Positions 40,001 through 43,000 of a stretch of 64,000 nt of DNA are shown here, in pieces; position 1 is the first letter of the stretch; each line of letters starts with the position of its first letter. Under the pieces are notes generated by a model. That model had not been told where the DNA came from and did not search any database. It saw only the letters and a program-made list of their open reading frames with translations. The position numbers were made by a program, and so were the translations under genes. Source of the stretch: the human T2T-CHM13v2.0 reference genome, Homo sapiens; NCBI RefSeq assembly GCF_009914755.1, contig NC_060930.1; one strand, written 5' to 3'.

Positions 40001-43000
40001 CATACAATAATAATGGGAGACTTTAACACTCCACTGTCAGTATTAGACATATCAATGAGACAGGAAATTAACAAGGATATTCAGGACTTGAAGTCAGCTC
40101 AGGATCAAGTAGATCTAGTAGATGTCTACAGAACTCTCTACCCCCAAATCAACAGAATATACATTCTTCTTAGTGCCACATCACACTTATTCTAAAATCG
40201 ACCACAGAATTGGAAGTAAAACACTCTTCAGCAAATGCAAAAGAACTGAAATCATAGCAAACAGTCTCTCAGACCACAGTGCAATCAAATTAGAATTCGA
40301 GATTAAAAAACTCACTCAAAACCTCACAATTTCATGGAAATTGAACAATCTGCTCCTGAATGACTCCTGGGTAAATAATGAAATTAAGGCAGAAATCAAG
40401 AAGTTCTTTGAAACCAATGAGAACAAAGAGACAATGTATCAGAATCACTGGGACACAGCTAAAGCAGTGTTAAGAGGGAAATTTATAGCACTAAATGCCC
40501 ACATGAAGAAGCTAAAAAGATCTCAAATTGACACCCCAACATCACAATTAAAAGAGCTAGAGAGGCAAGAGCAAACTAATCCAAAAGCCAGCAGAAGACA
40601 AGAAACAAATAAGATCAGAGAAGAATCGAAGGAGATAGAGATATGAAAAACCCTCCAAAAAAATCAATGAATCCAGGAGCTTACTTTTTGAAAAAAATAA
40701 CAAAATAGATAGACTGCTAGCTAGACTAATGAAGAGAGAGAAGAATCAAATAGACATTAAAAAATAATAAAGGGGATATCACCACTGAGCCCATAGAAAT
40801 ACAAACTACCATCAGAAAATACTATAAACACATCTATGCAAATAAACTAGAAAATCTAAAAGAAATGGATAAATTCCTGGATGCATACACCCTACCAAGA
40901 CTAAACCAGGAAGAAGTTGAATCCCTGAATAGACCAATAACAAGCTCTGAAACTGAGACAATAATTAATAGCCTACCAACAAAAAAAGCCCAGGACCAGA
41001 TGGATTCACAGCTGAATTCTACCAGAGGTACAAGGAGGAGCTGGTACCATTCCTTCTGAAACTATTCCAATCAGTAGAAAAAGAGGGAAACCTCCCTAAC
41101 TCATTTTATGGCCAGCATCATCCTGATACCAAAAGCAGGAAGAGACACAACAACAACAAAAACACTTCAGGCCAATATCCCTGATGAACATCGGTGAGAA
41201 AATCCTCAATAAAATACTGGCAAACAAAATCCAGCAGAACATCAAAAAAACTCATCTACCACGATCAAGTTGGCTTCAACCCTGGGATGCAAGGCTGGCT
41301 CAACATATGCAAATCAATAAACATAATTCATCACATGGAACCAATTACAAAAACCACATGATTATCTCAACAGATGCAGAAAAGGCCTTTGATAAAATTT
41401 AACATCTCTTCATGTTAAAAACTCAATAAACTAGGTATTGATGGAACGTCTCTCAAAATAATAAGAGCTATTTATGACAAACCCACAGCCAATATCATAC
41501 CGAATGGGCAAAAGCTGGAAGCATTCCCTTTGAAAATCAGTACAAGACAAGTATTTCCTCTCTCACCACTCCTATTCAACATAGTATTGGAAATTCTGGC
41601 CAGGGCAATCAGGCAAGAGAAATAAATAAATGGTATTCAAATAGGAAGAGAGGAAGTCAAGTTGTCTGTTTGCAGATAACGTGATTTTATATTTTGAAAA
41701 CCCCACCATCTCAGCCAAAAAAAATTTCTTGAAATGATAAGTAACTTCAGCAAAGTCCCAGTATACAAAATCAATGTGCAAAAATCACAAGCATTTATTT
41801 ACAATAACAACAGGCAAGCAGAGCACCAAATCATGAATGAACTCCCATTCACAATTGTTACAAAGAGAATAAAATACCTAGGAACACCACTAACAAGGGA
41901 TGTGAAGGACCTCTTCATGGAGAACTACAAACCACTGCTCAAGGAAATAAGAGAGGACACAAACAAATGGAAAAGCATTCCATCCTCATGGATACGAAGA
42001 ATCAATATCGTGAAAATGGCCGTACTGCCCAAAGTAATTTATAGATCCAATGCTATTCCCATTAAACTACCATAGACATTCTTAACAGAATTAGAAAAAA
42101 CTATTTTAAATTTCATATGGAATCAAAGAAGACCACTTATAGCCAAGACAATCCTAAGCAAAAAGAACAAAGTTGGAGGCATCATGCTACCTGACTTCAA
42201 ACTATACTACAAGGCTACAGTAACCAAAACAGCATGGTACTGGTACCGGTACCAAAACAGACATATAGACCAATGGAGCAGAACAGAGACCTCAGAAATA
42301 ACACCACACATCTACAACCAACTGATCTTCAACAAACCTGACAAAAACAAGCAATGGGGAAAGGATCTCCTATTCAGTAAATGGTGCTAGGAAAACTGGC
42401 TAGCCATATGCAGAAAACTGAAACTGGACCCCTTCCTTACACCTTACACAAAAGTTAACTCAAGATGAATTAAAGGCTTAAATGTAAAACCCAAAACCAT
42501 AAAAACCCTAGAAGAAAGCCTAGGCAATATCATCCAGGACATAGGCATGGGCAAAGACTTCATGACTAAATGCCAAATGCAATTGCAACAAAAGCCAAAA
42601 TTGACAAATGGGACACAACTAAACTAAAGAGCATCTGCACAGAAAAAGAAACTATCATCAGAGCTAGCAGGCAACCTACTGAATGGGAGAAAATTTTTGC
42701 AATCTGTCCATCTGACAAAGGTCTAATTTCCAGAATTTACAAAGAACTTAAACATATTTACAAGAAAAAGCAAACAAACAACCCCATCGAAAAGTGGGCA
42801 ACAGATATGAACAGACACTTCTAAAAAGAAGACATTTACGTGGCCAGCATACATATGAGAAAAAGCTCAACATCACTGATCATCAGAGAAATGTAAATCA
42901 AAACCACAATGAGATACCATCTCATGCCAGTCAGAATGGTGATTATTTTTAAAGTCAGGAAAAATACATGCTGGGGAGGCCATGGAGAAATAGGAATATT

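What the first reader, a model, noticed from the sequence alone, without database searches (positions are those of the whole stretch)
40990..41133. Ectopic gene-conversion tract between two inverted L1s of different age (partner 22908-23051)
Seen: the L1PA8A-like copy at 40990-41133 and the reverse complement of the L1PA5-like copy at 22908-23051 match at 142/144 positions (differences at 41070 and 41074). Identity falls to about 91% just upstream and lower downstream. Both copies carry the same two non-consensus changes: a 2-bp deletion TTTTATG--GCCAGC (consensus TTTTATGAGGCCAGC), which frameshifts ORF2 (...NSFYGQHH...), and GGGAAACCTCCC (consensus GGGAATCCTCCC). The tract has young-type bases (CAAGGAGGAG, TCA.TAGAAAAAGAGGGA). 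Inference: non-crossover conversion from L1PA5 into L1PA8A across ~18 kb. A single crossover (inversion) is disfavoured because the L1PA5 keeps its matching TSDs and each element has ends consistent with its subfamily.
Basis: partly seen in the sequence, partly recalled or inferred. Interest (0 to 1): 0.8.

Follow-up and report, generated by a model that had tools for sequence, protein, structure and literature searches.

The report
Short gene conversion between inverted L1s
A 144-base patch of an old, dead L1 repeat was overwritten with sequence copied from a younger, oppositely oriented L1 about 18 kb away; this is a clean but ordinary example of repeats exchanging sequence without rearranging the chromosome.

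Summary
Window 40990-41133 (+) and the reverse complement of 22908-23051 match at 142 of 144 positions. The two L1s are 84% identical overall.

The shared 2-bp deletion occurs at exactly two places in the 3.1-Gb genome, and both are these copies. The undeleted form has 8810 exact matches. The shared T>A change is rare but not unique: 48 exact matches against 7411.

I compared both elements with 29 copies chosen by the older element's flank and 20 chosen by the younger element's flank. Outside the tract the older element (A) carries its own group's bases. Inside the tract it carries the younger group's bases at 3 sites, and it has 1 change of its own where about 12 are expected. The younger element (B) has a normal mutation load there. 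So B was the donor and A the acceptor.

B is full length with intact 13-bp target-site duplications, and both elements keep their own type on both sides of the tract. That excludes a crossover or inversion.

Not tested: the subfamily names L1PA5 and L1PA8A, the state in other primates, and read-level support.

Verdict: a real non-crossover ectopic gene conversion, a new instance of a known process, of low to moderate interest.

The parts
40990..41133 (+). Converted tract in the acceptor, the older L1 (element A). This is the maximal extent, bounded by A-type bases at 40989 and 41134. The minimal extent is 41034-41110, or 41013-41110 if the shared CpG C>T at 41013 is counted.
   Evidence: 142/144 identity to the partner. 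Young-type bases at 41034, 41071 and 41089, plus the shared T>A at 41090 and the shared 2-bp deletion after 41109. Only 1 change private to A (41074) where about 12 are expected.
22908..23051 (-). Donor tract in the younger L1 (element B).
   Evidence: It carries its own group's bases and a normal private load in the tract: 41013-equivalent T, 41070-equivalent C, the T>A and the 2-bp deletion. It translates as ORF2 protein up to residue Y510 of PDB chain 8uw3_A, where the match stops at the deletion.
20420..26559 (-). Element B: a full-length (6140 bp) younger L1 on the minus strand.
   Evidence: Alignment to A. Its ends were read. Its best genomic relatives over a 500-bp flank are 95-96% identical. 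It differs from the young-group majority at 51 of 1139 columns, 4.5%.
20407..20419 (.). Left target-site duplication of B, AGTCTTGTAATTT.
   Evidence: Identical 13-mer at 26560-26572.
26560..26572 (.). Right target-site duplication of B.
   Evidence: Identical 13-mer at 20407-20419.
38172..43610 (+). Element A: the older L1 on the plus strand. The 5' limit is uncertain and may lie further left. The 3' end has an A-rich tail at about 43585-43610.
   Evidence: Alignment to B. Its best genomic relatives over a 500-bp flank are only 88-90% identical. It differs from the old-group majority at 97 of 1139 columns, 8.5%. No target-site duplication was found.
39106..39425 (-). A later, 5'-truncated L1 3' fragment nested in A in the opposite orientation. 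It is flanked by a 15-bp target-site duplication, ATGCTGAGGGATTTC, at 39091-39105 and 39426-39440. It is not part of the conversion.
   Evidence: 90.9% match to the 3' end of B in direct orientation. Sequence read.

Best explanation
A short non-crossover ectopic (non-allelic) gene conversion took place within one chromosome. The older plus-strand L1 (A, about 38172-43610) suffered a lesion, most likely a double-strand break, in the start of its ORF2 reverse-transcriptase region. It was repaired using the younger inverted full-length L1 (B, 20420-26559) as template; the inner edges of the two tracts lie 17,938 bp apart. Between 77 and 144 bp of B sequence were copied into A at 40990-41133. The copied stretch included changes private to B: a 2-bp deletion, a T>A change and probably a CpG C>T. 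B itself was not altered, and the 18 kb between the elements was not inverted. Shown here: the tract, its bounds, the genome-wide uniqueness of the shared deletion, the direction, and the absence of exchange in the flanks. Inferred: the break-and-repair mechanism (synthesis-dependent strand annealing or a similar pathway), that it happened in the germ line, and the date. The event has no foreseeable function, because both elements were already dead copies in an lncRNA intron.
For: (1) Identity is 142/144 in the tract, against 84% overall and 84-93% in the adjoining 150 bp. (2) No shuffle of 20000 reached the observed stretch, and none of 580 pairs of unrelated old-type and young-type copies reached 2 or fewer differences in those columns. 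(3) The deleted form CTCATTTTATGGCCAGCATC has exactly 2 exact matches in 3.1 Gb, both in these copies. Two more matches appear with 1 mismatch allowed: one is not an L1, and the other is an L1 with a different 2-bp loss. The undeleted form has 8810 exact matches. None of 29 old-group copies and none of 20 young-group copies has the deletion or the T>A change. (4) Direction. At 78 diagnostic sites over 3 kb, A has the old state at 70 and B the young state at 69. The only two adjacent young states in A are 41034 and 41071, inside the tract. A third site, 41089, agrees at a 60% majority threshold. A's private changes run at 97/1139 columns in the flanks, but only 1 occurs in the tract where about 12.3 are expected; the Poisson probability is about 6e-5 by my arithmetic. 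B has 4 private events there, in line with its 4.5% background. (5) No crossover. B has intact 13-bp target-site duplications, and both elements keep their type on both sides of the tract. (6) The tract length fits published non-allelic conversion tracts. A mean of 250 bp was estimated in 10.1101/135152 (passages read). Repair of a break in a chromosomal LINE by conversion from endogenous LINEs was shown in mouse cells by Tremblay et al. 2000, seen only as cited in PMC1920257 (passages read).
Against: Only 3 subfamily-diagnostic sites fall inside the tract, so on those sites alone the direction would be weak. Elsewhere A has 3 isolated young states (39825, 40013, 40961). The T>A change is present in 46 other copies. 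The two elements are only about 84% identical overall, which is low for homologous repair, although the 150 bp to the left of the tract are 92.6% identical. No other primate, no second human assembly and no reads could be examined, so the unconverted ancestral state of A has not been observed directly.
Confidence: 0.9

Rival explanations
1. The same sequence transfer from B to A happened, but through an RNA or cDNA intermediate. A transcript of the full-length element B was reverse-transcribed and used to patch a break in A.
For: B is full length with a 5' UTR, so it could have been transcribed. L1 sequence is known to be used in endonuclease-independent break repair (PMC1920257, passages read).
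Against: The patch is internal, in register and only 144 bp long. It has no 3' end, no poly-A and no junction scars. RNA-templated repair gives no reason for the donor to be the nearest neighbour 18 kb away, whereas closeness is a known determinant of DNA-level conversion (PMC6598467, passages read).
Confidence: 0.04
2. Assembly or polishing artefact: sequence from one L1 was written into the other during assembly of the reference.
For: A scan of the genome-contig collection for the deleted form found nothing.
Against: The two elements are 84% identical and lie in unique flanks. A 144-bp shared stretch is too short to collapse long-read assemblies (inference). The tract has 2 differences between the copies, and its bounds coincide with the surrounding mosaic of old-type sites. 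That pattern fits evolution rather than a copy-paste error.
Confidence: 0.03
3. Conversion in the opposite direction, A into B. Alternatively, both copies were converted by a third copy that has since been lost.
For: The T>A and C>T changes are not by themselves polarised.
Against: In the tract both copies have young-group bases at 41034, 41071 and 41089. The tract lacks the roughly 12 private changes expected of A, while its load fits B. No third copy with the deletion exists in this genome.
Confidence: 0.02
4. No transfer at all: a locally conserved or slowly mutating stretch plus parallel mutations. Alternatively, a crossover or inversion between the inverted repeats.
For: The 150 bp to the left of the tract are also above-average in identity, 92.6%.
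Against: None of 580 control pairs and none of 20000 shuffles reach the observed identity. The deletion occurs in 2 of roughly 8800 copies, and those 2 lie 18 kb apart. A single crossover would produce chimeric elements and separate B's target-site duplications, and neither is seen.
Confidence: 0.01

Closest known systems
Non-allelic (ectopic, interlocus) gene conversion between Alu elements. Sources: Kass 1995, Roy 2000 and Aleshin & Zhi 2010 as summarised in PMC6598467, and PMC554112; passages read.
   Same: A mosaic of subfamily-diagnostic sites in one copy. A short partial tract. A donor of a younger subfamily. Enhanced exchange between nearby copies.
   Different: Here the partners are L1s of about 6 kb, inverted, 18 kb apart and only 84% identical. 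The donor can be named with near certainty, because a private 2-bp deletion that is unique in the genome was transferred.
[quoted passage not shown] The paper itself is not held; it was seen only as cited in PMC1920257.
   Same: L1-to-L1 templated repair with short tracts. The citing paper mentions tracts as small as 13 bp.
   Different: That work used an induced break in cultured mouse cells. This is a fixed or segregating natural event in a human genome, and the initiating lesion is unknown.
Ectopic gene conversion among HERV LTRs (PMC4921805; abstract and introduction read), and among duplicated genes (10.1101/135152; passages read).
   Same: Non-reciprocal transfer of clustered variants from a paralogous donor. 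The tract length lies within the published range, with a mean of 250 bp.
   Different: Those partners are usually far more similar to each other. The duplicated-gene study reports that conversion slows as copies diverge, so an event between copies 84% identical lies at the diverged end of that range.
Inversions by recombination between inverted retrotransposons (non-allelic homologous recombination with crossover). This resemblance is recalled; no paper was read for it.
   Same: The same substrate: two inverted L1s on one chromosome.
   Different: No crossover outcome is seen here. The flanks, target-site duplications and subfamily type are unchanged on both sides of the tract.

Membership tests
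Non-crossover non-allelic gene conversion | A tract of sharply raised identity between paralogs, bounded on both sides by background divergence | tested here: met
   142/144 in the tract, against 92.6% to the left and 84.4% to the right. None of 20000 shuffles reached it.
Non-crossover non-allelic gene conversion | Derived variants shared by the two copies only, clustered within the tract | tested here: met
   The 2-bp deletion has 2 exact matches genome-wide, both here, against 8810 for the undeleted form. The T>A change has 48 matches against 7411. Outside the tract only 1 shared non-majority site (40101) was found in about 2.85 kb.
Non-crossover non-allelic gene conversion | The acceptor is a mosaic: it loses its own lineage states and private changes inside the tract only | tested here: met
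   A has young states at 41034, 41071 and 41089, and 1 private change where about 12 are expected. It has the old state at 70 of 78 diagnostic sites overall.
Non-crossover non-allelic gene conversion | Non-reciprocal: the donor is unchanged | tested here: met
   B's tract has young-group bases and a private load consistent with its 4.5% background.
Non-crossover non-allelic gene conversion | No exchange of flanking markers | tested here: met
   B's 13-bp target-site duplications are intact. Both elements keep their type on both sides of the tract.
Non-crossover non-allelic gene conversion | The unconverted ancestral state is seen at the orthologous locus of an outgroup or in other haplotypes | not testable with these tools
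   No primate genome or second human assembly is held.
LINE-1 ORF2 (start of the reverse-transcriptase region) | The translation matches solved L1 ORF2 protein | tested here: met
   The translation of B 23240-22920 aligns to residues 408-510 of 8uw3_A with E = 6.7e-61. The match ends at Y510, where the deletion lies.
Subfamily labels L1PA5 (donor) and L1PA8A (acceptor) | Match to the subfamily consensus at its diagnostic positions | not testable with these tools
   No Dfam or Repbase library is held. Only relative age is supported: divergence from the group majority is 4.5% for B and 8.5% for A, and the best relatives are 95-96% and 88-90% identical.
Inversion by crossover between inverted repeats | Chimeric elements that switch type at the breakpoint, with target-site duplications separated | tested here: not met

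The most novel reading that the evidence does not exclude
The event may be recent: on the human or African-ape lineage, and possibly still polymorphic. The only two differences between the copies, 41070 and 41074, lie 4 bp apart in the middle of the tract. They would then be an unconverted island left by patchy mismatch repair of heteroduplex DNA, not later mutations. The tract also holds the only sense-strand CCTCCCT word of each element, which is the core of the recalled PRDM9-associated hotspot motif. Under this reading a meiotic break at an L1-borne motif started repair from a paralog only 84% identical. That would give a datable natural example of how far diverged repeats can still serve as repair templates.
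Probability: 0.12. Interest if true: 0.45.

Novelty: new member of a known kind. Interest (0 to 1): 0.25.

Why it matters
Gene conversion between dispersed repeats is accepted, but it is documented mostly for Alu elements, LTRs and duplicated genes. Cases where donor, acceptor, direction and both tract bounds can be read from one genome are uncommon.

This case also shows that two L1s only about 84% identical, inverted and 18 kb apart, can exchange sequence without inverting the interval. That has three practical consequences:
- Dating repeats from their divergence can be misled by such patches.
- Subfamily calls can be misled in the same way.
- Paralogous variants in repeats can be mistaken for new mutations.

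The event has no evident functional consequence. Both elements are long-dead copies in an intron of a non-coding RNA gene.

Tried and rejected
- A scan of bacterial and archaeal genome contigs for the deleted form, hoping for stray human sequence as an independent witness, found 0 matches.
As that output suggested, I fetched 20 short stretches of 300 bp instead. For the young group chosen without bias, only the tract and 154 bp to its left are therefore covered.
- The copies fetched were picked by likeness to the tract itself, so they are biased there. For example, their majority at 41074 follows A. I used them only outside the tract, or together with the unbiased group.
- A search for A's target-site duplication gave only a low-complexity 10-mer.
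- No full 13-mer hotspot motif occurs in either element.
- A longer tract reaching left to about 40836 was considered and rejected. A keeps its own states at 40943, 40973 and 40989, and private changes at 40953, 40958 and 40980. Its private load there, 9/148, is near background.
- Three papers were not held: Myers 2002, Tremblay 2000, and Aleshin & Zhi 2010.
- The five literature searches turned up no paper describing this locus in the listings shown, and no genome-wide survey of L1-L1 conversion. Most subscription papers are not searched.

Full report
**Observation.** Window 40990-41133 on the plus strand and the reverse complement of 22908-23051 match at 142 of 144 positions. The differences are at 41070 (A versus C) and 41074 (G versus A). 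Both copies read TTTTATGGCCAGC and GGGAAACCTCCC, and a 24-base word spanning the deletion occurs only at these two places in the window.

**The two elements.**
- B is on the minus strand. Its body is 20420-26559 (6140 bp, full length), flanked by an identical 13-bp target-site duplication, AGTCTTGTAATTT, at 20407-19 and 26560-72.
- A is on the plus strand, from about 38172 to about 43610, with an A-rich tail. Its 5' limit is unclear and I found no target-site duplication for it.
- A is interrupted by a later, inverted, 320-bp L1 3' fragment at 39106-39425, which has its own 15-bp target-site duplication.
- A and B are 84.3% identical over 4227 aligned bases.
- In 100-column windows, identity peaks at 97-98 over the tract, is 93-94 just to the left, and is 80-86 to the right.

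**Is it more than chance?**
- I shuffled the 4226 alignment columns (676 mismatches) 20000 times. No shuffle gave a 144-column stretch with 2 or fewer mismatches; the mean was 63 and the maximum 120. The second-best observed stretch is 97.
- A binomial calculation at the locally best mismatch rates (7.4-10%) is not significant after correcting for position. I therefore used an empirical control that keeps site-specific rates.
- Among 580 pairs, each made of one copy related to A and one related to B, none had 2 or fewer differences in the tract columns. The minimum was 4 and the median 16.

**Shared private variants.** The window's own genome (3.1 Gb) could be searched.
- The deleted form CTCATTTTATGGCCAGCATC has exactly two exact matches, and these are the two copies here.
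- With one mismatch allowed there are two more. One is not an L1 at all, and the other is an L1 with a different 2-bp loss.
- The undeleted form has 8810 exact matches.
- The T>A form has 48 exact matches including these two, against 7411 for the T form, or 0.6%. It is rare but not unique, so alone it is weak evidence.
- None of 29 A-related copies and none of 20 B-related copies carries either change.
- Across about 2.85 kb outside the tract, only one other site (40101) shows A and B sharing a base that differs from both group majorities.

**Direction.** I built two reference groups that did not depend on the tract.
- Group O: 29 copies found with A's right flank, 41134-41633, at 88-90% identity.
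- Group Bn: 20 copies found with B's right flank, at 95-96% identity.
- The copies found with the tract itself are biased within the tract and were used for the flanks only.

Results:
- Over 39650-42650 there are 78 sites where the old and young majorities differ. A has the old state at 70, the young state at 5, and neither at 3. B has the young state at 69.
- The only adjacent pair of young states in A is 41034 and 41071, inside the tract. Site 41089 agrees at a looser majority threshold.
- A differs from its group majority at 97 of 1139 flank columns (8.5%).
- In the 145 tract columns A differs at 7. Six of these are shared with B: three young-type bases, the T>A, and two deletion columns. 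Only one, 41074, is A's own, where about 12.3 are expected. The Poisson probability is about 6e-5, by my arithmetic.
- B differs from the young majority at 51 of 1139 flank columns (4.5%). In the tract it has four private events (C>T at 41013, the C at 41070, the T>A, and the deletion), which is its normal load.

So the tract is native to B and foreign to A.

**Bounds.**
- The maximal tract is 40990-41133, because A has its own group's base at 40989 and 41134 and private changes at 40980 and 41135.
- The minimal tract is 41034-41110.
- A has no private changes in 40990-41033 or 41111-41133, where about 5.7 are expected. This suggests the tract nearly fills the maximum (inference).
- An extension to the left is rejected. 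A keeps its own states and private changes there (40943, 40953, 40958, 40973, 40980, 40989), and its private load of 9/148 is near background.

**No crossover.** A single crossover between inverted repeats would invert the 18 kb between them, make both elements chimeric and separate B's target-site duplications. None of this is seen.

**Coding context.** The tract encodes ORF2 protein. The translation of B upstream of the deletion aligns to residues 408-510 of the solved human L1 ORF2 protein (8uw3_A, E = 6.7e-61). The alignment stops at Y510, exactly where the deletion shifts the frame. The T>A change puts N where that structure has I. Both elements are otherwise decayed, so the frameshift has no functional weight.

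**Date (inference).**
- Two differences in 144 bp is 0.7% per lineage, about 15% of B's 4.5% divergence since insertion.
- Three of B's four private events in the tract were transferred and one was not, which fits a conversion late in B's residence.
- With a recalled neutral rate of about 0.17% per million years for L1 decay, this gives roughly 4 million years. The Poisson range is very wide, about 0.5 to 15 million years.
- If the two differences, which lie only 4 bp apart, are instead an unconverted island, the event could be younger.

**Mechanism.**
- The pattern is that of short-tract, non-reciprocal repair of a lesion in A using B as template on the same chromosome, with a non-crossover outcome.
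- The length is within the published range: a mean non-allelic tract of 250 bp, 95% interval 63-1000 (10.1101/135152, passages read).
- L1-to-L1 break repair by conversion has been shown experimentally in mouse cells (Tremblay et al. 2000, seen only as cited in PMC1920257).
- Conversion between nearby Alu copies and among LTRs is well documented (PMC6598467 and PMC554112, passages read; PMC4921805, abstract read).
- An RNA-templated version of the same transfer cannot be excluded on sequence, but it has no feature in its favour.

**Not tested.** The subfamily names (no library is held), other primates, other human assemblies, and reads. An assembly artefact is unlikely given the 84% identity of the elements and their unique flanks, but it has not been excluded by data.

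**Verdict.** This is a real, well-delimited ectopic gene conversion from the younger L1 into the older one.

Noticed in passing
window 39091-39440: A 320-bp, 5'-truncated L1 3' fragment (39106-39425, minus orientation, poly-T at its left end) is nested in the older L1. It is flanked by a perfect 15-bp target-site duplication, ATGCTGAGGGATTTC, and is 90.9% identical to the 3' end of the younger L1.
   Followed up: partly
window 41091-41097 and 22944-22950: The word CCTCCCT, recalled as the core of the PRDM9-associated hotspot motif, occurs once on the sense strand of each element, and in both it lies inside the converted tract. No full 13-mer is present. The word is part of the common L1 sequence, which has 7411 exact copies of the surrounding 23-mer, so this may be coincidence.
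   Followed up: partly
window 41070 and 41074: The only two differences between the copies are 4 bp apart. Each is a private base of one copy: C in B, seen in 0 of 29 and 0 of 20 relatives; G in A, seen in 1 of 29 and 0 of 20. They may be later mutations or a small unconverted island.
   Followed up: partly
G000:C13:80296956-80296975 (L033): Another L1 copy has a different 2-bp loss at the same spot (TTTTAAGGCC). Small deletions therefore do recur here, at roughly 1 in several thousand copies.
   Followed up: yes
window 40924, 41472, 41693 and others: The younger element has the old-group state at 7 of 78 diagnostic sites, all isolated. The young reference group is itself polymorphic at several of them. 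This suggests B belongs to an older layer of the young group rather than that B was converted.
   Followed up: no
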